DNA from: a virus
Direction: 5' to 3' (one strand)
IMG/VR virus record: IMGVR_UViG_3300050158_000056
Location: 1-64,000 of that record
DNA: 64,000 nt
Shown: positions 2,536 through 46,070 of the stretch, piece by piece
Position numbering within the stretch: position 1 is the stretch's first letter
Layout: each line of letters opens with the position of its first letter
Translations under genes and position numbers: made by a program
Notes under the pieces: model-generated
What the model was told of the DNA's origin: nothing
The model's input: the letters and a program-made list of their open reading frames with translations, nothing else
Databases searched by the model: none

Positions 2536-3108
2536 TCAATTACTACCACTAAGTCTAATACCTGACACTGGTACTATCCCAGTGCGCACATATTCTTTGA
2601 ACATACTCTTCTGATCAGCCTCAGCTTCTTCTACGGTGGTAAATGAGCCTAACTGTACAGTCAGTCCCCTACAGTTTATACTGGCGCTGTACAGTCCATT
2701 GGGTAGTCTATCTATACCTTTTGGTAAAGGATTGATAGTGTATCCTCGGGTCCTCCTAAACAGACTATACTCTGTTTTGAGAATAACTCTCAGATTGGCT
2801 GGTTTAGTATTTGTGAAATCGAAGTCTATAGGTACCACGATCTCATCATCACCTGGTTTACTACCAGTGTGGAAGTACCATGCTAACCATAATAGTTCAC
2901 AGTTTATTTTCTTAGGTACGTGGATTACATATCGCTTACTACTGAAGCTATGCATCAGGTAGGCACTGCCATCTGGAGCAAATTTAGAACTAGGAGTAGG
3001 TTTTGTTCTAAAGAACTTACCAGTCTCTGGAAAGAACTCTAGATGTTCTTTTAGATAGTCCAGTGTCACATTGTCTTTTGTAATCCGCTTTTCAAGGACA
3101 GTCGCCAT
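2536..3108 (-). CDS. degenerate HNH / AP2-domain protein
   Basis: LKEHLEFFPETGKF, LAWYFHTG, VPIDFDFTNTKPANLR (catalytic His absent), AP2-like QLGSFTTVEEA. Confidence 0.7.
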   Translation of the reverse strand: MATVLEKRITKDNVTLDYLKEHLEFFPETGKFFRTKPTPSSKFAPDGSAYLMHSFSSKRYVIHVPKKINCELLWLAWYFHTGSKPGDDEIVVPIDFDFTNTKPANLRVILKTEYSLFRRTRGYTINPLPKGIDRLPNGLYSASINCRGLTVQLGSFTTVEEAEADQKSMFKEYVRTGIVPVSGIRLSGSN

Positions 3109-3167
3109 ATAATCTCACTAATTAGATATCAGATGAGTAAGTGAACTAGTTACTTTCAGACTTTACC

Positions 3168-3707
3168 TTATAAAAACATAGCACCATTTTCGGTACATAC
3201 CAAGTCGTTCGATCCTGTATGTAGGATATAATTACCTTTCTTATCGGTCGGTACCATAATCATGTCATCATCACTGGGAGTTTTGTTGTTCGATAGAAAA
3301 CGATATCCACCCCCTTTGATAGGACGAGTCATACTCGTTTCATAGCTGGTTGGTTCACCTTTATTTGTAATCGAATATGTTTCATTTACTGGAGTACTAG
3401 ATTTACGATTGACGTATTCATCAATGGCGATCCTAAATGATTTATCACCATTTAGACATTTGACCATAAAGAGTTCAGTGGTCAGTGGATCAGTACCAGA
3501 ATTAGTAGTACCTCCTCCTGTATTATCCAACGCATTCTGAGGAGCTACTTCTGCAGCTGTATGAGTCGATACGAGTGGGGGTTCTACCATAGGTACTACT
3601 GTAGTAACCTTAGGATGATCTCGCTGATAGATCATTGTGGTCATCACCCCCACTAAGATAGCTAGAACAGTCGCAATAAAGACTAAGATGTTGTTTTTAG
3701 TGATCAT
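3168..3707 (-). CDS. membrane-anchored hypothetical protein
   Basis: N-terminal TM ILVFIATVLAILVGVM; AAGGA RBS before ATG 3707. Confidence 0.65.
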   Translation of the reverse strand: MITKNNILVFIATVLAILVGVMTTMIYQRDHPKVTTVVPMVEPPLVSTHTAAEVAPQNALDNTGGGTTNSGTDPLTTELFMVKCLNGDKSFRIAIDEYVNRKSSTPVNETYSITNKGEPTSYETSMTRPIKGGGYRFLSNNKTPSDDDMIMVPTDKKGNYILHTGSNDLVCTENGAMFL

Positions 3708-37641: not shown

Positions 37642-38296
37642 CTAACGATGTAGTACCCACCATAGCCTGATCTTCTTTATCCTGCTCTACAGCGGCCACC
37701 AGATCCTTCTTGAGCTCTGGATTGAGGTTGTTCTCCACAAAGAGCTTTTGGATCAGAGCTGAATCATTCCTTACCTTCTTAAAGTAAGCTAGACTATCAG
37801 GAGCTGAGTTAGCAGTAGCTAGATCTCGTAGAGAGGCATCTAGGATCATCATGTCTCTGGTAACATTAGATGTGCGATTCACAGCCGCTGGTACACTATC
37901 ACGATTGTTAGTAGTACCTACAGCATCACTCTTAAACCTAGTCCATACTCGATCTAAAAAGTACACCGCTCGTGGGTCTTCTTTACTAAAGATCACGATT
38001 GTGGGATGATACATGTTGATACCCAGACTGAGCTTATACTGGTTATACAAACGATGCATCTCTAGTTTGTAACCAGAGTCCTTATCGTATCGTTCTTTGT
38101 CGTAATTGAATAAGGGGATATAAGGCTCAAACTGAGCATATGTAATGATGTTAGGACGCTCTGATTCTTCCAGTAGTTTGTTACCTTCTTTGGCCACGAT
38201 AGCGGCTAGATGGTTTTTACTGATAGACTCCTTGATCTTATCATGATCCACAGTATCTGGGATAGGGGCATCTTTAATTTCAGGGGGGATAGCCAT
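37628..38296 (-). CDS. hypothetical protein
   Basis: AAGGA RBS, acidic tail, overlaps sbcD start. Confidence 0.65.
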   Translation of the reverse strand: MAIPPEIKDAPIPDTVDHDKIKESISKNHLAAIVAKEGNKLLEESERPNIITYAQFEPYIPLFNYDKERYDKDSGYKLEMHRLYNQYKLSLGINMYHPTIVIFSKEDPRAVYFLDRVWTRFKSDAVGTTNNRDSVPAAVNRTSNVTRDMMILDASLRDLATANSAPDSLAYFKKVRNDSALIQKLFVENNLNPELKKDLVAAVEQDKEDQAMVGTTSLDDDE

Positions 38297-38361
38297 CTAC
38301 TTAGTATCCTTTTTCGAGTATTACATAGTGTCATATATACCAGAATAATAACTAATGTAGA

Positions 38362-38775
38362 CTACAGATAGCTAGTGAGTAGGTTATTTTCAGGTATTAC
38401 GAGTCTACCATTTTTGAGAGATATAGTAGCACCAGTCTGACCGATCTCTCCAGAAAGCATAGTGTAAATGATACTGATAGTGATATCATAAGTACCACTA
38501 GCATCAGTGAGTGCATTGGTTACAGCTACAGTGATCTTACGCTCTGCATCGAAGATACGATTGAAGCATCCCTGTAGGTCACTCTGTATGTTATTACAGA
38601 GCGTATCAGCATCTCTATGAAACTTAGCTACTAGCCAAGGGAGAGATATAATCAGATCTGGTACTATAGGTACAGTGTGTTGAGGGGTCCTAAAGAACCT
38701 ATTGAGAGTATAGGCTATAACTGACTGTACGTCATCGACGTATAGTGATCCAGTTAGGCTAGGTACAGTTACCAT
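38362..38775 (-). CDS. phiKZ gp62-like core protein
   Basis: VPSL..ISLP..IQSDL..FNRIF pattern; synteny. Confidence 0.55.
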   Translation of the reverse strand: MVTVPSLTGSLYVDDVQSVIAYTLNRFFRTPQHTVPIVPDLIISLPWLVAKFHRDADTLCNNIQSDLQGCFNRIFDAERKITVAVTNALTDASGTYDITISIIYTMLSGEIGQTGATISLKNGRLVIPENNLLTSYL

Positions 38776-38827
38776 GATTTATAACTCCATATATAGATAT
38801 CATCACATCATGGTTCTGATACTTACC

Positions 38828-39052
38828 TTATAGATATTTCTTAGGACTTATATGACTCGTAGCTTTATCTATATTCGACATATTACGGAAGAAGCCTTTT
38901 CCGAATATACGATCGAATAATGACTCGTTCCTCTGGTCTTCTTTTTCGGATAGTAGCGTATAGACTTCAGCTAACCATTCTCTACGTACAGTGATCTTGT
39001 CGTCAGGATTACCCTGAGACATAGCCTTTGAGGATCCCATATCGATAGCCAT
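38828..39052 (-). CDS. hypothetical protein
   Basis: GAGG RBS before MAIDMG. Confidence 0.5.
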   Translation of the reverse strand: MAIDMGSSKAMSQGNPDDKITVRREWLAEVYTLLSEKEDQRNESLFDRIFGKGFFRNMSNIDKATSHISPKKYL

Positions 39053-39053
39053 G

Positions 39054-39383
39054 TCAATACCTCTTGTTAATAGGTATGTAAATATCAGCCAAATCAAATC
39101 GAATGGTGATACTGTGATGGATTTTCTTAACACTAATAGAAGCGAATCTAAAATACCATCCTGGTTTAGCTATGTATTTACCCTCACCTACATGATGGAT
39201 AGCTACTAGTCCAAAACTCCACACTCTATGTAGGGCGTATTCCTCAGAGATCTTATTGTAAGTATAGACACACAATCCTCGAAACTTATAGAAAGGGAAG
39301 AGTCTAATGTGTCCAGCGATAACATTGCTGTTGTCGTACTTCTTGTAGATACCAGGGATACCTGATTCGGTGAATGTGTACAT
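39054..39383 (-). CDS. hypothetical protein
   Basis: AAGGA RBS. Confidence 0.55.
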   Translation of the reverse strand: MYTFTESGIPGIYKKYDNSNVIAGHIRLFPFYKFRGLCVYTYNKISEEYALHRVWSFGLVAIHHVGEGKYIAKPGWYFRFASISVKKIHHSITIRFDLADIYIPINKRY

Positions 39384-39417
39384 AATTACATCCTTGTATC
39401 AGTAAAAAATAATGGAT

Positions 39418-39445
39418 GATAGTGGGGGTACATACCCCCACTATC
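39418..39445 (-). terminator. terminator hairpin
   Basis: GATAGTGGGGGTA-ca-TACCCCCACTATC, T-tract on minus strand. Confidence 0.7.
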
Positions 39446-39454
39446 TGTATTTGA

Positions 39455-40069
39455 TTAGCCTCTACTCATTTCGATCGATGTCGGATCTCGATCAGTCTTA
39501 GCTAGGATCTTATCACGGATAAAGTCCCTAGTCTTATTGATCGCATATAGCTCATCGTCTGTCAGATCGGGATCATCTGTATAACTAGTACCAGAGATAT
39601 CATACCACCCATCTTCATCACTATCACGTAACACATCGTGACATGTGAAGTTCTCGATGAGTCGTCCATAAACGTCCTCAGTTGGCAGCCAATCTGAATC
39701 CCATCCGAATCCTTCCATACGACCTTCCCTGACAGCCTTCAGGACAGGCTCATACATGAGGATCGGTATCTCCATCCGCAGTGGGATGGTCTTAAAGTCA
39801 TCGATAGTACTCAAGATACGAATGTTATCCGGATTCATAATCGCATTAACCGTCCTAGAGATATCTAGGCCGAGCTGATCCATAGGAGCCACATATCGAC
39901 TGAAGAACTCCTGTCGTAAATGACCAAAGTCCTCCCCGAAGAAGCTTCTATGCCCCCCATTATTTATCGAGTTAAATACTTCATTACTGACTCTCGAACC
40001 AGTAAGTACGCCCAGTGAAGGCATAGCGTTGCCTGAGCCTATTGTGATGGTGTCGTGAATTCTAGCCAT
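39455..40069 (-). CDS. phiKZ gp59/Imp3-like core protein
   Basis: ILMYEPV..MEGFG..YGRL..DLTDDE..I..T..DPTS C-terminal pattern; first core gene after beta'. Confidence 0.6.
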   Translation of the reverse strand: MARIHDTITIGSGNAMPSLGVLTGSRVSNEVFNSINNGGHRSFFGEDFGHLRQEFFSRYVAPMDQLGLDISRTVNAIMNPDNIRILSTIDDFKTIPLRMEIPILMYEPVLKAVREGRMEGFGWDSDWLPTEDVYGRLIENFTCHDVLRDSDEDGWYDISGTSYTDDPDLTDDELYAINKTRDFIRDKILAKTDRDPTSIEMSRG

Positions 40070-40153
40070 CTGGTGTTCCTTATTATAAAGATGTCATCTC
40101 CTAACATCATTGGACTTAGGAACTAAATTAGTTTTTGATAATTCCTAGTTAGT

Positions 40154-40177
40154 GACAGGGGTCATCTGACCCCTGTC
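40154..40177. terminator. terminator hairpin after displaced beta' 3' end
   Basis: GACAGGGGTCA-tc-TGACCCCTGTC. Confidence 0.65.
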
Positions 40178-40217
40178 TTTTTGTGTATTCACAGTATTCT
40201 CTTCGACCAGAGTATGG

Positions 40218-40253
40218 TCAAATCGTCCGTAAAAAGCTATTAATACTAATAGT
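40218..40253 (-). pseudogene. displaced duplicate of the nvRNAP beta' C-terminus
   Basis: TISINSFLRTI* versus functional TVTINSFLRNL* (41387-41422); post-stop sequence also similar. Confidence 0.8.
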
Positions 40254-40254
40254 G

Positions 40255-41316
40255 TCATTGACTATCATTCTTGATTTTACTTATAGTACTCAGTGATACC
40301 TGATAGTCGGAAGCGATCTCACGATAAGATCTAGGATCGTTTTTGATAGATTCCGCTTTTTCCGGATCTACCGGGCGACCTCGCTTGTTATTATTCTGCT
40401 CTGTCCAGGTGGCCCACCTGCAGTTATCAGGACTATAACCTTTGTAATTATCGATGCGATCGATGGTCAGGTTCTCTTGATAGCCATGAGCCATAGACCA
40501 GTCATAGAACGCCTGAAAAGAGGCTCTCCATTCTGGACATACACCGATACCTCTGCCACCATAAGCAGGATAATTTGTGGAGTTTATATTCGTACATCGT
40601 TGTACTATACCACTCCAGATATTGTAGATACGGGTACCAAACATACCATGTGTTTTATGATTATTAGAAGCAGTCTCTTTGGCGTAACACCCACAAGAAA
40701 CAGTACCACCCCGCATTAAGTTGTTATAATTAACCACGGCGGTATTACCACACTCACACTGGCACTTGTATCTTGATCTACCTTGTTTATTGGGACCATC
40801 GTATTCTACCACAGTTAACCTACCAAATACCTTTCCGATGACAGATTTTCTGACTTCATCTGCTTTCTTTTTAGTACTTTCGGAAGTCCGTTCTTTGTTA
40901 TAACAACCACATGATTGGGTATTACCACTCACGAGATCGTGTCCTCTGACCGATACAGAATTACCACATTCGCATGCGCACTCGTATATGGAAAGTTTAT
41001 TACCCACCCCACTAAACGATTTGACAGTTAATCTACCGAAAGTTTTACCTATCATCGATTCTCTTAGTTTGGCGTTCCTGACTTCTCTGACTTTCGCCAG
41101 TGCTTCTCGTGATAAACACCCACATGATCTCGTAAGTTGTTTGGTTAGACTATATGTGTTAGTTATTCTGATATTACCACATTCGCACTGACATACCCAG
41201 AGATTAGTTCGATGATTACCCCTCCCTTTGAAATACAATACTTTAAGTCGTCCGAATGTCTGACCCGTTAGATCTATACTCCCATTCGCTAGCTTTATAT
41301 TAGTAGGACCAATCAT
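40255..41316 (-). CDS. free-standing HNH homing endonuclease with three Cys-rich repeats
   Basis: 3x (FGRL.V..C.CECGN..SCGC), YGGRGI.VC.EW, TIDRIDNYKGYSPDNCRWAT, C-terminal HTH. Confidence 0.88.
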   Translation of the reverse strand: MIGPTNIKLANGSIDLTGQTFGRLKVLYFKGRGNHRTNLWVCQCECGNIRITNTYSLTKQLTRSCGCLSREALAKVREVRNAKLRESMIGKTFGRLTVKSFSGVGNKLSIYECACECGNSVSVRGHDLVSGNTQSCGCYNKERTSESTKKKADEVRKSVIGKVFGRLTVVEYDGPNKQGRSRYKCQCECGNTAVVNYNNLMRGGTVSCGCYAKETASNNHKTHGMFGTRIYNIWSGIVQRCTNINSTNYPAYGGRGIGVCPEWRASFQAFYDWSMAHGYQENLTIDRIDNYKGYSPDNCRWATWTEQNNNKRGRPVDPEKAESIKNDPRSYREIASDYQVSLSTISKIKNDSQ

Positions 41317-41334
41317 AGTTCATCCCTAGAGAGT

Positions 41335-41368
41335 AGATAGAGGTAGAAATAAATCACTACCTCTATCT
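41335..41368 (-). terminator. hairpin after beta' exon 2
   Basis: AGATAGAGGTAG-N10-CTACCTCTATCT. Confidence 0.6.
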
Positions 41369-41386
41369 TGTTCGACCATATTATAG

Positions 41387-41551
41387 TCAAAGATTACGTA
41401 AGAATGAATTTATAGTAACGGTCAACGTCTTATGTAAACTGATCTCAGACGACACAGATCCGCTGTTTCTATCGAATATAAAATTAGCGGGCGATAGATT
41501 CTTCATCGCCCTTACCATATCTACTTCTGGAATTAATATTCCAGCTAGACT
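41387..41551 (-). CDS. nvRNAP beta' N-terminal subunit, exon 2 (gp56.1-like, 54 aa)
   Basis: not in track: SLAGILIPEVDMVRAMKNLSPANFIFDRNSGSVSSEISLHKTLTVTINSFLRNL*, in frame with NADFDGD after splicing. Confidence 0.88.
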   Translation of the reverse strand, partial: SLAGILIPEVDMVRAMKNLSPANFIFDRNSGSVSSEISLHKTLTVTINSFLRNL

Positions 41552-41914
41552 CGTTATGTTCAGCATAGCTCGTTAGGCTATACTCGCACCATGACGTGCA
41601 GCTACTCCTCTCAGAGCAGACCAGATCATATCTTCACCTTTACTCATCTGAGTATTAAGGGCCCACCACTTCGGACTCACGCGAGTCCTACTCCCTCTCG
41701 GGATGATCGTTGGAGTTTCTACATATCTCATAGAAGACTTAGTAGCTTACCTGCGGATTGAGCAATCTCACATATCTTTTACCGTACCGTAGGGATTAGC
41801 TACGCCATCAGCTATATTTCTATACTGACTTGGTGTATGGAGCTCTAAGCTTGTTCCCGTCAATTCAATGGGTTATTTTACTTATCATTTCTGATAAGGG
41901 CGACCTGTCTATAT

Positions 41915-43252
41915 TTAGTATAATTTGATGATTTCTTTAGGATAGTCTTTTAGATCGATATGCGCGAAAACCCAATCGCGCCATCGACATGGTGGTTTCT
42001 TACAGTGCTTTATATATCTAGCGATTACCGCTGGATCGCATCTACTAGGTCTATCTTCATTAGACCAACTGGTGATATTGGTGTAATACCGCACAGATCC
42101 ATACTGATCAGTTATCTTAATAGGTCGATCAGATGCATGTATGTTAGAATATATGTTCAGTACATCTTGTGGATATATAGGCCACGTCAATTCCTCGCGA
42201 TTACCCGCAGATTGAAAACATCTACCTCTCCACGGAATCAACTCATCACTATCGAGTAGTCTGAATAATGTGTGATCAGTGATATCCTGTTCTCTGATAA
42301 CATCAGTTATATTGTCGTATACGAGTACTTTTCGAGTATCCATACGCATACATGCAATTTTGTTTGGTGGAACTCGTCTCTGTACTGGCCCAGATGCAGT
42401 TAACTCATCCCATGATCTAGAATCTGAGGTATATTTAAAAACATACCCTTTATAAGGTCGTCCTTCGTAAGGTCTTCTGTCCATCACAGAATGCGCTGAG
42501 CCAGGTGCTACCCCGAGATATCTGGCCATGTCATGATACCCAGAAAATATCTGTTCCTGCCCAGTAGCAAGATTCTTACCTACTATCTTTCGGATAGTTT
42601 CGCCTCTAGGACCTTCATTGAACGAATGAAAGTTATTGTCCGTATATGTAGCCCATTCTAAATTGGATATAGCATTATTCCGTTTATCACTGTCCCTGTG
42701 ATTCACGGTGAGGTGGACTGTGTCGATAGGATGAGATATAAAAGCTAACGCAATAACTCTATGCCATCTTAACCGTCGTTGGGTGTTTGGTATATTGATA
42801 GTACAATAACCATCTCCAGTTGGTTTATACCCAATCTCCCGATACGTTGCGGCGCATCTTGCTAATGGTACACCATTATGCAGTCTCACCTCTATCTCTG
42901 GATGATTAGGTACTGATATCCAAGTAGTAGTACCAAAATCAATTCCCAGTAGCGGATTTGGCCTATACCACTCATCGCTCCACTCTAGATTAGAGATATG
43001 GATATTATCCTTATTACCATCCACAAACCTTACAGACATCCATTCGGGATCTTTATCTGGAGACAGTGGCTTGTAGGTCAGTAACATCAGTCTATCTAAA
43101 GGATGAGATGACGGTTTGTGAGATTTACCTCTAATCTTTACAGCACGTTTTCCGTGATGATTACGGTACTCTGGTATTACTGCATTGGTGGATATCAGAC
43201 GGACTACACCATGTTCGTCGATATCATACATTGGGTTTGTAGGTATTTTCAT
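41915..43252 (-). CDS. intron-encoded NUMOD4/HNH homing endonuclease (tandem HNH units)
   Basis: first unit degenerate (VRFVDGNKDNIHISNLEW), second intact (HRVIA..VNHRDSDKRNNAISNLEWAT), NUMOD1-like C-terminal repeats. Confidence 0.9.
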   Translation of the reverse strand: MKIPTNPMYDIDEHGVVRLISTNAVIPEYRNHHGKRAVKIRGKSHKPSSHPLDRLMLLTYKPLSPDKDPEWMSVRFVDGNKDNIHISNLEWSDEWYRPNPLLGIDFGTTTWISVPNHPEIEVRLHNGVPLARCAATYREIGYKPTGDGYCTINIPNTQRRLRWHRVIALAFISHPIDTVHLTVNHRDSDKRNNAISNLEWATYTDNNFHSFNEGPRGETIRKIVGKNLATGQEQIFSGYHDMARYLGVAPGSAHSVMDRRPYEGRPYKGYVFKYTSDSRSWDELTASGPVQRRVPPNKIACMRMDTRKVLVYDNITDVIREQDITDHTLFRLLDSDELIPWRGRCFQSAGNREELTWPIYPQDVLNIYSNIHASDRPIKITDQYGSVRYYTNITSWSNEDRPSRCDPAVIARYIKHCKKPPCRWRDWVFAHIDLKDYPKEIIKLY

Positions 43253-43261
43253 GAAACTTTT

Positions 43262-43292
43262 CCTTAGTATGCAATTGGGTTTCATACTAAGG
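43262..43292 (-). promoter_or_regulatory. hairpin sequestering the RBS of the intron endonuclease
   Basis: CCTTAGTATG-N11-CATACTAAGG; the TAAGG of the RBS is in the 3' arm. Confidence 0.7.
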
Positions 43293-43361
43293 TATAAAAA
43301 CTATCCTTATTTTGTTATATAAAATAACTTAAGTCATCAAATAACTATATTAAGAGGTCAA

Positions 43362-44648
43362 ATCGCCGTCAAAATCGGCATTTTGAAGAGCTACATCCAA
43401 AGGACTCATACCTACGGCACTGTCTTCTAGATCAGTCTTAATCCTAGTCCAGTATTTTAACATCACTGAACCATCTCTGATCGAAGGAGGTCTGTCCCAC
43501 AAACAGGGTATACCTGGAAATGGAGATTCTTCGATCATCTGATCCATGATCTCTTTAATCAGTGGATCGAATGTATTAAGGGCTGTACGCACTTTACTAA
43601 ATGCGACATTCACATTCATGTCGTATCGTTTACACAAACGACCGATGATGTGTACTCGTAGAGTGTTTACTGCCATCTTCCATGGAATGTGGAGTTCATA
43701 GTACTGATGAGGTCCTACGATCGGTACGATCACACCTCGGAACGACCAGTGAAATCTAGCACCGAAGATATGTGTACGAGGGATAGCCTTTTTCGTAGCT
43801 ACATACTTCTTGGTGGCTTCTTCTACATAGTCGATGATGTTCTTAAATGCTTTAAACGCGATGCGCTCAGCATAGATGGTTTGGTTCTTTCGTTTCTTAG
43901 GAGCAAACTCTAGCCTAGATAGAGATACAGCTGCTTTCATGATGTGGTCAGCGGTGGTATCACTATAGCGCTTCTTATTGGGTCCACCACCTTCTTGTGT
44001 GATGATAGGATTGATTGCAGCATTGAGGATAGGGATATAGTGACAGAAGACGATGTCTTTGTAGAGTTCGATGCAGAACTTCATAGACAGAGTATCTGGC
44101 TTCTTAGAGATTACTGGATGATCGAAGTAGAAGAAGTTCATGATCCTATCAAAGTTATCGTACAAGTAGTTAAAGCCTCTACCATCGATGATACCGATGA
44201 GGTCGAACGGTAGTACCGAGTCTACATCTAGGATATCATCTAGATAGTTTCGTTTACCTTTGTCGTACGACAACCATGCTGCCAGGTTAAGATATAACTT
44301 AGGTGCGAGCCATCCATTAGGTAGCTCTTTAGGAGCCATGAGCCAGTTTCGACAGATGAGATTGTCTTCGTCCAAGATATTGCGTTTGGATACCTTAGTT
44401 TCACAGACCGGACACGTCATGTCGATCTTATTATTACCCTCAGTGTGACCACATTGACACTTTGCAATGAAATCGGCCCCAGTCCCATCTGAGAAAATTA
44501 GATCACTGAGTTGGTCGATATAATCCGTATCAGTAAGGTCAAATTTATTCAGAATGATCGGGTCTATATCAGATCTATTAAGTACTAGATTAAACTGATC
44601 ATCGTGAGAAACCAATTTCAGAACTCGTTTTGTGTCATCGCTCAGCAC
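43362..44648 (-). CDS. nvRNAP beta' N-terminal subunit (phiKZ gp55-like), exon 1
   Basis: CQCG..CPVC Zn site, RTHIFGARFHWSFRGVI, RPPS, catalytic NADFDGD at exon end; GTG start; spliced product about 483 aa. Confidence 0.93.
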
Positions 44649-44681
44649 AATGATTCTCCTTCTATTATGAATACCAAAACA

Positions 44682-44707
44682 GTAATATAGCGATTCATCG
44701 CTGATGA
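44682..44707 (-). promoter_or_regulatory. early promoter TCA-N14-CTATATTAC
   Basis: minus strand TCAtcagcgatgaatcgCTATATTAC. Confidence 0.8.
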
Positions 44708-44711
44708 GAGA

Positions 44712-45167
44712 TTAGCTTGCGCACTTCTTAAGTATACATTGCGCCAATGAATGAGCGACTGCGCTATCTAGTGCGCTTACCGTACACCACTCGATATAAA
44801 TATACATTCGATCAGGGTCGGTGGTGGACAGTTGTTTCTTGTTCTTCACTACTCCAGGGATACCTCTAGCTGAGCTAACTATGTCCCCCACTATGATTTT
44901 GTCATAAGGGATACTACTGAGCGGGACCCACGATGTATCTCTGATTGAGTCTTTATTTCCTACGTAAAATACATCTAAGCTATCCGCTGCAAAATTATTC
45001 AACACGACTTTATCTTCGAACTCTATACTGACTCTATTTCTAAACTTACCAGTTCTGCACCCCTGAAGACTATCTGTGGCAGAGATTCTACCATCGCTAT
45101 GTATTGCGCAGTATACTTTATCGCCAACAACTACGTCGCTGAATTTAGTATATTTCAGAAGTTTCAT
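44712..45167 (-). CDS. hypothetical protein with two KOW/SH3-like repeats
   Basis: DVVVGDKVY and KIIVGDIVSS units. Confidence 0.55.
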   Translation of the reverse strand: MKLLKYTKFSDVVVGDKVYCAIHSDGRISATDSLQGCRTGKFRNRVSIEFEDKVVLNNFAADSLDVFYVGNKDSIRDTSWVPLSSIPYDKIIVGDIVSSARGIPGVVKNKKQLSTTDPDRMYIYIEWCTVSALDSAVAHSLAQCILKKCAS

Positions 45168-45601
45168 GAGGCTAGCTCGGGACTAGTCGTAGGAGGTTTA
45201 CCTAAGTAGTACAGATCACTGCACTCACTGACTGGAACACTAAGATTACTATCATAACAGTCGTATTTTAGGATCAATATATTATCAGTATCATCGATAG
45301 TCTGTACTGTGGCTATATGACCTCCGGATCTCACCGATGAACACACTAAGTCTCCTACCTTTATAGTATTCAGTGGAGTCAACCTGACTCCTACTAGACC
45401 GCTAGATCCGATACATACTAGGTCTCTAGTAGATTCTTTTTTGTAGCTATTAGTCCTACCCCCACTCCACGTCACAGACACTCGGGATCCATTGATTTTC
45501 TTTTTGATACTCGTCAGTACGCCTATCCTAAGTTTGTAGGATGAGTATATTAGGTATCCTACCTTTAGAGTATCCCAATCGATGTCATGTAGGCTTTTCA
45601 T
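45164..45601 (-). CDS. hypothetical protein with two KOW/SH3-like repeats
   Basis: TLKVGYLIYSS and TIKVGDLVCSS units; GAGG RBS; ATGA overlap. Confidence 0.55.
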   Translation of the reverse strand: MKSLHDIDWDTLKVGYLIYSSYKLRIGVLTSIKKKINGSRVSVTWSGGRTNSYKKESTRDLVCIGSSGLVGVRLTPLNTIKVGDLVCSSVRSGGHIATVQTIDDTDNILILKYDCYDSNLSVPVSECSDLYYLGKPPTTSPELAS

Positions 45602-45602
45602 A

Positions 45603-46070
45603 TCACTCACCTCGTTTAGAAGACAATCTACCAATCTGGAGACCATCGTCAGTGTCGTCGATGGTAGCTATGATGGATTGATTATAGATAGAGAATACTA
45701 CTGGACTTGGTTCATCATCGAGGTTTACTTCGGTGTGTTTGGTACCATAAGCTTTTTGTTTGCGGAAGAGTTTCTTGTTAAGTTCATCTCTTTGATCGAT
45801 ATTGTTGATCAGTAGCGTAGTGTATTCAGTAGTATTCTTATAGATGATATCAGGATATCCTCTAGATGAAAGATCACTGATCTCTACATGAGCGTTGCCT
45901 TCTACTGTGATCTGTTTGGTATTCAGTGTGTTAATTACCACATGCGCGTCTACGACATATAGTTCTTTAGTGAAGACTCGTGGGTAACTTACGATCTCAT
46001 CTGATGTGGTGACACAAGTCAATCCAATTATCGTGGTCGAAGTACCATCGGAGTTTCTGCGAATAAGCAT
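45603..46070 (-). CDS. hypothetical protein
   Basis: AGGA RBS, operon context. Confidence 0.55.
   Translation of the reverse strand: MLIRRNSDGTSTTIIGLTCVTTSDEIVSYPRVFTKELYVVDAHVVINTLNTKQITVEGNAHVEISDLSSRGYPDIIYKNTTEYTTLLINNIDQRDELNKKLFRKQKAYGTKHTEVNLDDEPSPVVFSIYNQSIIATIDDTDDGLQIGRLSSKRGE

What the first reader, a model, noticed from the sequence alone, without database searches (positions are those of the whole stretch)
40202..41422. HNH cassette that replaces the RNA polymerase C-terminus with a recoded copy, leaving the old 3' end stranded
Seen: the beta' gene ends ACC GTT ACT ATA AAT TCA TTC TTA CGT AAT CTT TGA CTATAATATGGTCGAA (TVTINSFLRNL*, 41422-41387). One base after the HNH stop codon lies ACT ATT AGT ATT AAT AGC TTT TTA CGG ACG ATT TGA CCATACTCTGGTCGAA (TISINSFLRTI*, 40253-40218). 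The peptides are nearly the same but only AAT and TTA are shared among the 11 sense codons. Both copies keep a small GAC(C/U)A..UGGUC stem over the stop and each is followed by its own terminator-like hairpin. Inference: a splicing-independent homing element inserted about 11 codons from the end of an essential gene, repaired it with its own cleavage-resistant 3' end, and pushed the original downstream. Such cassettes are known from fungal mitochondrial genes. Here it sits about 130 nt from a group I intron in the same gene, so two nucleases may co-home or act in phage-phage competition.
Basis: partly seen in the sequence, partly recalled or inferred. Interest (0 to 1): 0.8.

Follow-up and report, generated by a model that had tools for sequence, protein, structure and literature searches.

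The report
Nuclease cassette replacing polymerase gene end
A selfish DNA-cutting-enzyme gene has inserted into the last codons of an essential RNA polymerase gene of an uncultured jumbo-type phage and keeps the gene working by bringing a foreign, differently spelled gene end; near-identical phages in other samples still carry the uninserted gene, which fixes the insertion to the nucleotide.

Summary

- **Gene layout.** All parts lie on the minus strand. The phiKZ-type non-virion RNA polymerase beta'-N gene is split after NADFDGD by a group I intron that carries an HNH gene. Its exon 2 ends ...SLHKTLTVTINSFLRNL*.
- **The duplicate.** An intact free-standing HNH gene follows (41316-40255). One base after its stop lies ...TISINSFLRTI* (40253-40218).
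- **Decisive result.** Contigs from two other leaf-litter samples (X3, X9), 99-100% identical in the flanks, join 41442 directly to 40253 through 19 other bases. That allele reads ...SLHRSLTISINSFLRTI*, in frame and of the same length. It runs straight into the hairpin and the next gene.
- **What this shows.** The downstream copy is the native gene end. The window strain replaced 19 native bases with 1188 bases: a foreign 17-codon gene end, a stem-loop, a hairpin and the HNH gene.
- **Divergence.** Synonymous sites between the two ends are saturated, as expected for a distant ortholog. There is no sign of extra recoding.
- **Frequency.** The uninserted haplotype looks commoner, at about 10 contigs against 1.
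- **Not tested.** Cleavage by the HNH protein is inferred only. Co-homing with the intron nuclease is not supported as a single transfer.

The layout is known from fungal mitochondrial mobile ORFs and yeast WHO elements. This scan has noted it before in several other phages.

The parts
43362..44648 (-). Exon 1 of the phiKZ-type non-virion RNA polymerase beta'-N subunit gene. It ends with the GAT codon of NADFDGD.
   Evidence: PHROG 2987 'RNA polymerase beta subunit', E 1.4e-77. tblastn finds 27-29% identity to annotated nvRNAP beta' genes of Noxifer, RAY and others. Relatives at 50-73% identity continue NADFDGD-(S/N)LAG....
41552..43361 (-). Group I intron of 1810 nt. It carries a 456-aa HNH_3 endonuclease ORF (43285-41915) upstream of the ribozyme core.
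   Evidence: Rfam RF00028 scores 52 bits against a gathering score of 50, E 2e-11, at 41940-41602. Pfam HNH_3 E 7.6e-11. Splice sites follow from U at 43362, G at 41552, and the restored ...DFDGD|SLAGILIPE... seen in uninterrupted relatives. The anatomy was also noted in earlier scan entries.
41442..41551 (-). The first 110 nt of exon 2. This part is shared, 100% identical, by the HNH-plus and HNH-less haplotypes.
   Evidence: X3 and X9 contigs cover 41442-41921 with 0 differences (table 8).
40254..41441 (-). The inserted cassette of 1188 nt, absent from the HNH-less allele. It takes the place of 19 native bases.
   Evidence: read laying joint 40253->41442, 'skips 1188', with 19 letters between, in one contig each of X3 (depth 31.7) and X9 (depth 12) (tables 5 and 5c).
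41387..41441 (-). Foreign replacement gene end: the last base of the Ile codon, 17 codons (SLHKTLTVTINSFLRNL) and the stop. This is the end now translated.
   Evidence: Codon-by-codon comparison with the native allele, over 18 codons counted from that Ile: 16 differ in spelling and 12 encode the same residue. The other six are conservative changes.
41371..41391 (-). Stem-loop spanning the stop codon of the foreign end (UUUGACUAU/AUGGUCGAA).
   Evidence: strand folding -6.7 kcal/mol, z -3.3. The homologous stem sits at 40222-40202.
41335..41368 (-). 12-bp perfect hairpin between the gene end and the HNH ribosome-binding site. It has no U-run.
   Evidence: strand folding. scan_promoters_terminators does not list it as a terminator.
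40255..41316 (-). Intact free-standing endonuclease gene of 353 aa. It has three CxCxCG...SCGC zinc-finger-like repeats and a PacI-like HNH-type nuclease domain.
   Evidence: PHROG 374 'HNH endonuclease', E 6.6e-105. More than 3,500 family members, the closest at 58% identity. The best PDB match by sequence and by fold is PacI, weakly. Motif conservation is shown in alignment A2.
40218..40253 (-). Stranded native gene end: the last 11 codons (TISINSFLRTI) and the stop, with no start codon. It is identical to the same stretch of the HNH-less allele.
   Evidence: The X3 and X9 contigs show no listed difference at 40140-40253 (table 3).
40202..40222 (-). Native stem-loop spanning the native stop codon (UUUGACCA/UGGUCGAA).
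   Evidence: strand folding -9.5 kcal/mol, z -3.1.
40154..40177 (.). 10-bp GC-rich hairpin downstream of the native end. Its T-run is on the plus strand only.
39455..40069 (-). Conserved 204-aa gene that follows beta'-N in all relatives. It forms the downstream homology flank.
   Evidence: tblastn finds 38-64% identity directly downstream of beta'-N in L004-L009. The exact protein sequence occurs on 12 contigs.

Best explanation
This is a free-standing homing-endonuclease cassette that entered the 3' end of an essential phage RNA polymerase gene by replacing the gene end.

Shown:
- In the window strain, 19 native bases near the end of the beta'-N gene are replaced by 1188 bases.
- Those bases hold a diverged, homologous copy of the last 17 codons, the stop and a conserved stop-codon stem-loop. 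A hairpin and an intact HNH-type nuclease gene follow, and the insert ends one base after the HNH stop codon.
- The native last 11 codons, stem-loop and hairpin sit untranslated just downstream, still identical to the intact native allele.
- That native allele exists in otherwise near-identical phages from other samples. It is in frame and of the same length.
- The two ends are saturated at synonymous sites while the flanks are about 99.9% identical. The upstream end therefore came from a distant relative, not from local duplication.

Inferred:
- The HNH protein cuts the native allele. Every other native base is still present in the HNH-plus genome, so a target that spares its own genome must overlap the 19 missing bases or their junctions (roughly ...GAGAT|ATCCCTCCACAGAAGCCTT|ACTATT...).
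- The break would be repaired from an HNH-plus genome during co-infection. The gene body would serve as left homology and the stranded remnant with the next gene as right homology. This would copy in the foreign end and the HNH gene and delete the target.
- The polymerase would stay functional because the foreign end encodes a conservative, consensus-like tail.
- The hairpin upstream of the HNH start probably limits its expression from read-through.
For: - **Sequence and chance statistics.**
- **HNH-less allele.** Seen in contigs of X3 and X9, with the joint 40253->41442 and 19 letters between. The flanks show 0 differences over 480 nt on one side and 3 scattered differences plus one 10-base patch over 2254 nt on the other.
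- **Reconstruction.** The reconstructed allele keeps the frame and length and ends SLHRSLTISINSFLRTI*.
- **HNH-plus allele in a second sample.** The X2 contig 41375-42095 matches the window exactly. It bridges the left junction and reaches into the intron HNH ORF.
- **Frequency.** The variant exon-1 protein P0053 is on 10 contigs and the window's P0001 on 1. The HNH protein is on 1 contig and the next gene's exact protein on 12.
- **Saturation.** Two of 12 codons for identical residues are the same, against a plateau of 0.36-0.41 in orthologs at 60-70% amino-acid identity.
- **Synteny.** In all six complete related loci (L004-L009), beta'-N is followed by the 204-aa gene.
- **Nuclease family.** PHROG 374 E 6.6e-105. 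Homologs lie beside DNA polymerase and similar genes in hundreds of phages.
- **Same architecture elsewhere in this HNH family.** L041 has an integrase 3' end duplicated around the HNH gene. L040 has a gene start duplicated.
- **Mechanistic precedents.** Fungal mobile ORFs (PMC3630166) and WHO elements (PMC7282813).
Against: - No cleavage data exist, so the nuclease may be inactive or may cut elsewhere.
- Pfam gives no domain for this protein. The fold match to PacI is weak: Foldseek E 0.059, VIA Z 4.6 with rmsd 8.2.
- Only two haplotypes were seen. Spread by homing, as opposed to one old insertion carried by a strain, is therefore not shown.
- No donor carrying the foreign end was found.
- Contigs drop rare variants, so allele frequencies are rough.
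- The samples may all belong to one sampling campaign.
Confidence: 0.85

Rival explanations
1. One-off illegitimate recombination. A fragment holding a foreign gene end and a nuclease gene landed here once and is simply inherited. The nuclease does not home into this site. It could be inactive, could cut elsewhere, or could serve in phage-phage interference, like PhiPA3 gp210.
For: Only two haplotypes were observed. The HNH protein is known from a single contig, and its closest relative is 58% identical. No donor was found. An interference role for RNAP-gene nucleases is documented in PhiPA3 (PMC11620839, abstract seen).
Against: The ORF is intact and the remnant shows no decay. The insert ends one base after the stop codon. 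The only native bases lost are a short stretch inside a conserved coding end, which is the signature of target disruption. The same architecture recurs with this nuclease family in unrelated phages. Interference and homing are not mutually exclusive.
Confidence: 0.11
2. The HNH-plus arrangement is ancestral, and the common HNH-less allele arose by deletion of the cassette.
For: Loss of endonuclease genes is common. The two alleles differ by one block.
Against: A deletion cannot create the 19 bases ATCCCTCCACAGAAGCCTT. These continue the remnant in frame and encode (I)SLHRSL, homologous to (I)SLHKTL. They must be original gene sequence.
Confidence: 0.02
3. Local tandem duplication of the gene end followed by divergence in place, with the nuclease gene inserted later between the copies.
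For: The two copies are direct repeats 1169 nt apart.
Against: The copies are saturated at synonymous sites but conserved as protein, so both evolved as working gene ends. Meanwhile the flanks differ by about 0.1% between haplotypes, and the HNH-less haplotype has a single copy.
Confidence: 0.01
4. Assembly chimera at the 68-nt repeat inside the HNH gene (40403-40470), which wrongly joins two different nuclease loci.
For: Logan contigs of the source run X1 break exactly at this repeat. Two other contigs share it (tables 7 and 8).
Against: In X3 and X9 the other copy is continuous across the repeat, with the same two foreign flanks seen in X1. That leaves only the window's pairing. The ORF is colinear with full-length homologs such as P0057 across the repeat. 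The gene-end duplication and the HNH-less joint do not depend on this join.
Confidence: 0.01

Closest known systems
Mobile endonuclease ORFs (mORFs) of fungal mitochondria that create gene hybrids with a duplicated C-terminus: Allomyces macrogynus atp6; Glomus atp6, atp9, cox2 and nad3 (PMC3630166, which cites Paquin et al. 1994)
   Same: The order of parts is the same: a foreign, diverged but protein-conserved gene end, then an endonuclease gene, then the native end stranded downstream. As here, the native end matches close relatives that lack the element, while the inserted end is only 64-81% identical at DNA level. The Glomus atp9 case also has a stop codon before a separate endonuclease ORF.
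   Different: The host is a phage, not an organelle. The nuclease is HNH-type with zinc-finger-like repeats, not LAGLIDADG or GIY-YIG. Here 19 native bases are lost, and the duplicated stretch is very short (17 codons plus a 3' stem-loop).
WHO elements of Torulaspora and Lachancea yeasts, relatives of the HO endonuclease (PMC7282813)
   Same: They home into an essential gene (FBA1) and replace its 3' end at each integration, without any splicing. Cleavage is allele-specific.
   Different: WHO proteins are intein-like LAGLIDADG and zinc-finger fusions in a nuclear genome, and repeated homing builds clusters of relics. Here there is a single cassette and a single relic. Cleavage was demonstrated for WHO6 but not here.
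Intron-less homing by free-standing endonucleases of T4-type phages (SegF, SegG, MobE; reviewed in PMC2988022, and PMC2790892)
   Same: A free-standing nuclease gene in a phage lies next to the gene it is thought to cut in nuclease-less relatives. It spreads by repair of the break together with flanking markers.
   Different: The T4 genes sit between genes and are not described as carrying a replacement gene end or leaving a stranded copy. A search of the T4 review for 'duplication', 'duplicated', 'remnant' and 'pseudogene' found nothing.
PhiPA3 gp210, an intron-encoded HNH endonuclease in a jumbo-phage RNA polymerase gene (PMC11620839)
   Same: A nuclease is associated with a multisubunit RNA polymerase gene of a phiKZ-type phage, and it could serve in competition between co-infecting phages.
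   Different: gp210 lies inside a self-splicing intron. The cassette here needs no splicing. It matches the upstream intron nuclease of this window better than it matches the cassette.

Membership tests
Homing endonuclease gene (free-standing, intron-less homing) | Presence/absence polymorphism at one precise site in otherwise near-identical genomes | tested here: met
   The HNH-plus allele is in X1 and X2, and the HNH-less allele in X3 and X9. Flanks are 99-100% identical. The joint 40253->41442 is supported by a contig in each HNH-less run.
Homing endonuclease gene (free-standing, intron-less homing) | Encodes a nuclease of a recognised homing-endonuclease family | tested here: inconclusive
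   PHROG 374 'HNH endonuclease' gives E 6.6e-105, but Pfam gives no hit. The conserved DR..GY.P.NCRW...EQ..N motif lacks the canonical His. The best solved match is the HNH-type enzyme PacI, but weakly: sequence E 0.07, Foldseek E 0.059, VIA Z 4.6.
Homing endonuclease gene (free-standing, intron-less homing) | The protein cleaves the element-less allele site-specifically and not its own genome | not testable with these tools
   There is only a logical constraint: a self-sparing target must overlap the 19 bases missing from the HNH-plus genome.
Homing endonuclease gene (free-standing, intron-less homing) | Super-Mendelian transfer into the empty allele during co-infection | not testable with these tools
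   The phage is uncultured and its host is unknown.
Gene-end-replacing endonuclease cassettes (fungal mORF / WHO type) | Order of parts: diverged functional gene end, endonuclease gene, then the stranded native end | tested here: met
Gene-end-replacing endonuclease cassettes (fungal mORF / WHO type) | The stranded end, not the translated one, matches the allele of close relatives that lack the element | tested here: met
   The remnant 40253-40218 and everything downstream continue without difference into the X3 and X9 allele. The translated end differs from that allele in 16 of 18 codons.
Gene-end-replacing endonuclease cassettes (fungal mORF / WHO type) | The inserted end is of foreign (horizontal) origin | tested here: met
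   Synonymous sites are saturated (2 of 12 identical codons; plateau 0.36-0.41), while the flanks differ by about 0.1%. The donor itself was not found.
phiKZ-type non-virion RNA polymerase beta'-N subunit | Sequence homology including the NADFDGD catalytic loop, and a length of about 483 aa after splicing | tested here: met
   PHROG 2987 E 1.4e-77. tblastn matches annotated nvRNAP beta' genes at 27-29% identity. Uninterrupted relatives are 481-499 aa. The upstream 551-aa ORF shows no similarity to chimallin, so nucleus formation is not claimed.
Group I intron (the neighbouring element) | Covariance-model match at or above Rfam's gathering score, and splice sites that restore the conserved protein | tested here: met
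   RF00028 scores 52 bits against 50. U lies before the 5' splice site and G ends the intron. The restored junction DFDGD|SLAGILIPE matches relatives.

The most novel reading that the evidence does not exclude
Gene-end replacement may be a general and so far undescribed way for phage homing endonucleases to invade coding sequence without an intron or intein. Three of 50 loci of this one HNH family show it: this RNA polymerase gene, an integrase cut near its catalytic Tyr codon in L041, and a gene start in L040. Here the cassette would be active. Together with the intron nuclease 110 nt away, it would form a linked pair of drives in an essential polymerase gene that also acts as a weapon against co-infecting HNH-less strains.
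Probability: 0.3. Interest if true: 0.7.

Novelty: new member of a known kind. Interest (0 to 1): 0.55.

Why it matters
Homing endonucleases are usually thought to need an intron or intein to enter coding sequence, or else to sit between genes. This case is a third route in a phage: the cassette brings a spare gene end.

It is an unusually clean example. Both alleles coexist in nature in near-identical genomes. The insertion is therefore defined to the base, and the predicted target is narrowed to about 19 bases plus their junctions. The nuclease gene is intact. Together these make a direct cleavage and homing test simple to design.

There are also practical consequences:
- Such cassettes create chimeric gene ends and small pseudo-ends that mislead annotation and phylogeny of phage core genes.
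- They mark boundaries of genetic exchange between phage strains.

Tried and rejected
- **No close DNA relative.** Megablast against the phage collection found nothing. A single-protein scan of viral contigs found no relative.
- **Relatives too distant.** The related loci L004-L009 are too diverged (the window's exon 1 is 60-70% amino-acid identical to L004 and L006-L009; L005 is more distant) to compare intergenic DNA. None shows the GAC.ATA.T.TGGTCGAA motif.
- **Extra recoding.** I tested whether the foreign end is recoded more than neutral saturation predicts. It is not significant: P about 0.19 against codon usage, and about 0.1 against the ortholog plateau.
- **Possible second case in L006.** An HNH gene lies between the 204-aa gene and an ORF with a similar C-terminus. 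I rejected this. The same domain is part of a full-length homolog in L004 that has no adjacent HNH, so it is a paralogous domain.
- **Hit at contig position 75247.** The peptide CVFINSLIRSM* is a chance match inside another HNH ORF in a different frame.
- **Genome-wide scan.** A scan of the 94.8-kb contig for other duplicated gene ends found only this one.
- **Short repeat D8.** The 19-nt repeat between the native end and the 5' splice site is at chance level.
- **Chimallin.** The upstream 551-aa ORF shows no similarity to chimallin.
- **Literature.** Five full-text searches found no description of this layout in phages. This is a limited search, not proof of absence.
Full report
**What is there.** The window is the first 64 kb of a 94.8-kb IMG/VR virus contig, estimated 41% complete. 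All features discussed lie on the minus strand.

ORF 44648-43350 is the N-terminal beta' fragment of a phiKZ-type non-virion RNA polymerase. PHROG 2987 gives E 1.4e-77, and tblastn finds 27-29% identity to annotated nvRNAP beta' genes. The ORF stops just after the catalytic NADFDGD.

A group I intron follows. Rfam RF00028 scores 52 bits against a gathering score of 50, at 41940-41602. The intron carries a 456-aa HNH_3 ORF. Uninterrupted relatives of 481-499 aa continue DFDGD-(S/N)LAG.... This places the splice sites at 43362|43361 and 41552|41551, and it defines a 54-codon exon 2 (41551-41387). Earlier scan notes describe the same anatomy.

**The observation.** Exon 2 ends TVTINSFLRNL* (41422-41387). 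A 353-aa HNH-family ORF follows (41316-40255; PHROG 374, E 6.6e-105). One base after its stop lies TISINSFLRTI* (40253-40218).

The pair is recovered independently as a 55-nt direct repeat at 71% identity. It is the best non-self peptide match in the whole contig, scoring BLOSUM62 40 against 25 for the next of 97,712 windows. It also shares the stop codon and 12 of the 15 bases compared after it. Both copies keep an 8-9 bp stem-loop that includes the stop codon, and each is followed by a strong hairpin. Neither hairpin has a U-run on the gene strand.

Public leaf-litter metagenome runs hold this phage. I laid the contigs of four runs on 38000-46000.

- X1 (the likely source) and X2 carry the window's arrangement. 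An X2 contig matches 41375-42095 exactly. It links the foreign end to the intron's HNH ORF.
- In X3 and X9, one contig each (depth 31.7 and 12) joins 40253 to 41442. It skips 1188 bases and holds 19 other letters between (gene strand ATCCCTCCACAGAAGCCTT).
- The flanks are essentially identical. There are 0 differences over 41442-41921. Over 38000-40253 there are three scattered differences plus one 10-base patch.

The reconstructed allele keeps the frame and the length. It reads ...SSEISLHRSLTISINSFLRTI*, against ...SSEISLHKTLTVTINSFLRNL* in the window.

The downstream copy is therefore the native gene end. The window strain replaced 19 native bases by 1188 bases. These hold a foreign gene end (41441-41387), a stem-loop, a hairpin and the HNH gene, and the insert ends one base after the HNH stop codon. 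A deletion could not have produced the 19 in-frame homologous bases, so the HNH-less form is the ancestral state.

**Assembly check.** The source run's contigs break at a 68-nt repeat inside the HNH gene (40403-40470). The other copy of that repeat is continuous in X3 and X9, with the same foreign flanks as in X1. Only the window's pairing is left.

**Origin of the upstream end.** Over the 18 codons that start at the Ile codon whose last base begins the insert, 16 differ in spelling and 12 encode the same residue. The other six are conservative changes. Two of the 12 codons for identical residues are the same. True orthologs of this phage at 60-70% amino-acid identity plateau at 36-41%, and codon usage predicts 3.8 of 12. 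The end is thus as diverged as a distant ortholog. It is not significantly more recoded than that.

Both ends share lineage-specific residues (SLH, INSFLR) that the retrieved relatives lack. The donor was therefore probably a closer, unsampled relative. It was not found.

**Frequency.** The exon-1 protein of the other haplotype (P0053) is on 10 contigs, and the window's P0001 on one. The HNH protein is on one contig, and the next gene's exact protein on 12.

**Mechanism (inferred).** If the HNH protein targets this locus and spares its own genome, its site must overlap the 19 missing bases or their junctions. Every other native base is still present in the HNH-plus genome.

Repair of a cut HNH-less genome from an HNH-plus genome would use the gene body as left homology and the stranded remnant as right homology. 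That would explain why the remnant is retained and undecayed.

The nuclease domain has a conserved DR..GY.P.NCRW...EQ..N motif without the canonical His. Its AlphaFold model (pLDDT 82) and its sequence both find PacI as the best solved match, but only weakly. Membership of the HNH superfamily therefore rests mainly on the PHROG profile. The N-terminal CxCxCG...SCGC repeats also occur on nucleases with other catalytic domains. This fits the modular DNA-binding repeats described for phage endonucleases (PMC10448857).

**Co-homing.** The two nuclease-associated differences between haplotypes are perfectly linked in the four runs laid. However, the 480 nt between them are identical in both haplotypes. 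A single conversion tract from the diverged donor is therefore unlikely. Later joint spread is possible but untested.

**Generality.** I compared the flanks of 49 other loci of this HNH family (50 were fetched; one had too little flank) and found two more cases.

- In L041, a tyrosine integrase gene ends SRRDDSIKKAAVENLDL*. An HNH gene and a terminator follow, then SRSDEAQKK-AVENLDL*, with most codons respelled.
- In L040, a gene start MLTLEMMQRRWPHGD lies upstream of the HNH gene, and MLTLEIMHRRWPAGN... overlaps its stop.

Earlier notes of this scan report the same layout in several other phages and in an archaeon. I did not check those.

**Comparison with known systems.** The layout matches fungal mitochondrial mobile ORFs with C-terminal duplication (PMC3630166) and yeast WHO elements, which replace the 3' end of FBA1 at each integration (PMC7282813). 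Intron-less homing (T4 Seg and Mob enzymes) and an RNA polymerase-gene nuclease used in competition (PhiPA3 gp210, PMC11620839) are known in phages. In five full-text searches I found no description of gene-end replacement in phages.

**Verdict.** This is a new member, in a phage and with an HNH-type nuclease, of a known kind of selfish element. It is made unusually testable by the natural coexistence of both alleles.

Noticed in passing
window 43377-41922, compared with contigs of runs X3 and X9 and protein P0053: The common haplotype also differs across the whole intron-ORF region. Identity to the window stops at 43378, inside the Ala codon of NADFDGD, and its exon-1 product ends NA-KEHRRYFSL*. 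Yet the intron's 3' part and the start of exon 2 (41921-41442) are 100% identical. Contig depths fit one strain. That strain may therefore carry a different intron at NA|DFDGD, possibly in tandem with this one around a 15-nt micro-exon encoding DFDGD. I could not read those contigs.
   Followed up: partly
proteins P0002-P0051 (relatives of window 43350-44648): Exon-1 products of related phages stop at several different points in or after the catalytic loop: ...NA|, ...NAD| or ...NVD|, and ...NADFDGD|. About half of the relatives are uninterrupted. The NADFDGD codons look like a hot spot with more than one intron insertion site.
   Followed up: partly
window 40403-40470: A 68-nt stretch of the HNH catalytic core is repeated exactly on other contigs in X1, X3 and X9. 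It is flanked there by homologous but diverged nuclease sequence, at a depth similar to the phage. This suggests a paralogous HNH gene elsewhere in the same or a co-occurring phage, perhaps with a gene-conversion patch.
   Followed up: partly
L041:2774-2827 and L041:3837-3890: In an unrelated 103-kb viral contig, an HNH gene of the same family sits between two copies of the last 16-17 codons of a tyrosine integrase gene. The duplication starts just after the catalytic Tyr codon, and most codons are respelled.
   Followed up: partly
L040:2907-2951 and L040:3465-3509: This is the mirror-image case. The first 15 codons of a gene (MLTLEMMQRRWPHGD / MLTLEIMHRRWPAGN) are duplicated on either side of a 174-aa HNH gene. 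The downstream copy overlaps the HNH stop codon and continues into the gene body.
   Followed up: partly
window 38048-38108: Ten differences between the two haplotypes are clustered in 61 nt, all spaced by multiples of three, inside ORF 38296-37628. This looks like a small recombination patch in an otherwise about 99.9% identical background. It may extend beyond the stretch laid.
   Followed up: no
L004:7465-9008, L007:7450-8028, L008:7925-8373: The spacer between beta'-N and the conserved 204-aa gene ranges from 36 to 1544 nt among relatives. In three of them it holds different small ORFs. This intergenic site accepts insertions repeatedly.
   Followed up: no
window 40154-40177: The GC-rich hairpin after the native gene end scores as an intrinsic terminator only for the plus strand (T-run on that side), although all neighbouring genes are on the minus strand.
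   Followed up: no
L021, L033, L044, L045 (matches at about 3001-3615): The CxCxCG...SCGC repeat module of this HNH protein is also fused to a different C-terminal domain (motif ...RFDF...EYDG.QH...). This suggests shuffling of DNA-binding and nuclease modules.
   Followed up: no
own contig G000, 74208-75190, minus strand (outside the window): A second free-standing HNH gene with the same nuclease domain (48% identity over 83 residues) lies between two plus-strand genes. No gene-end duplication was detected around it.
   Followed up: partly
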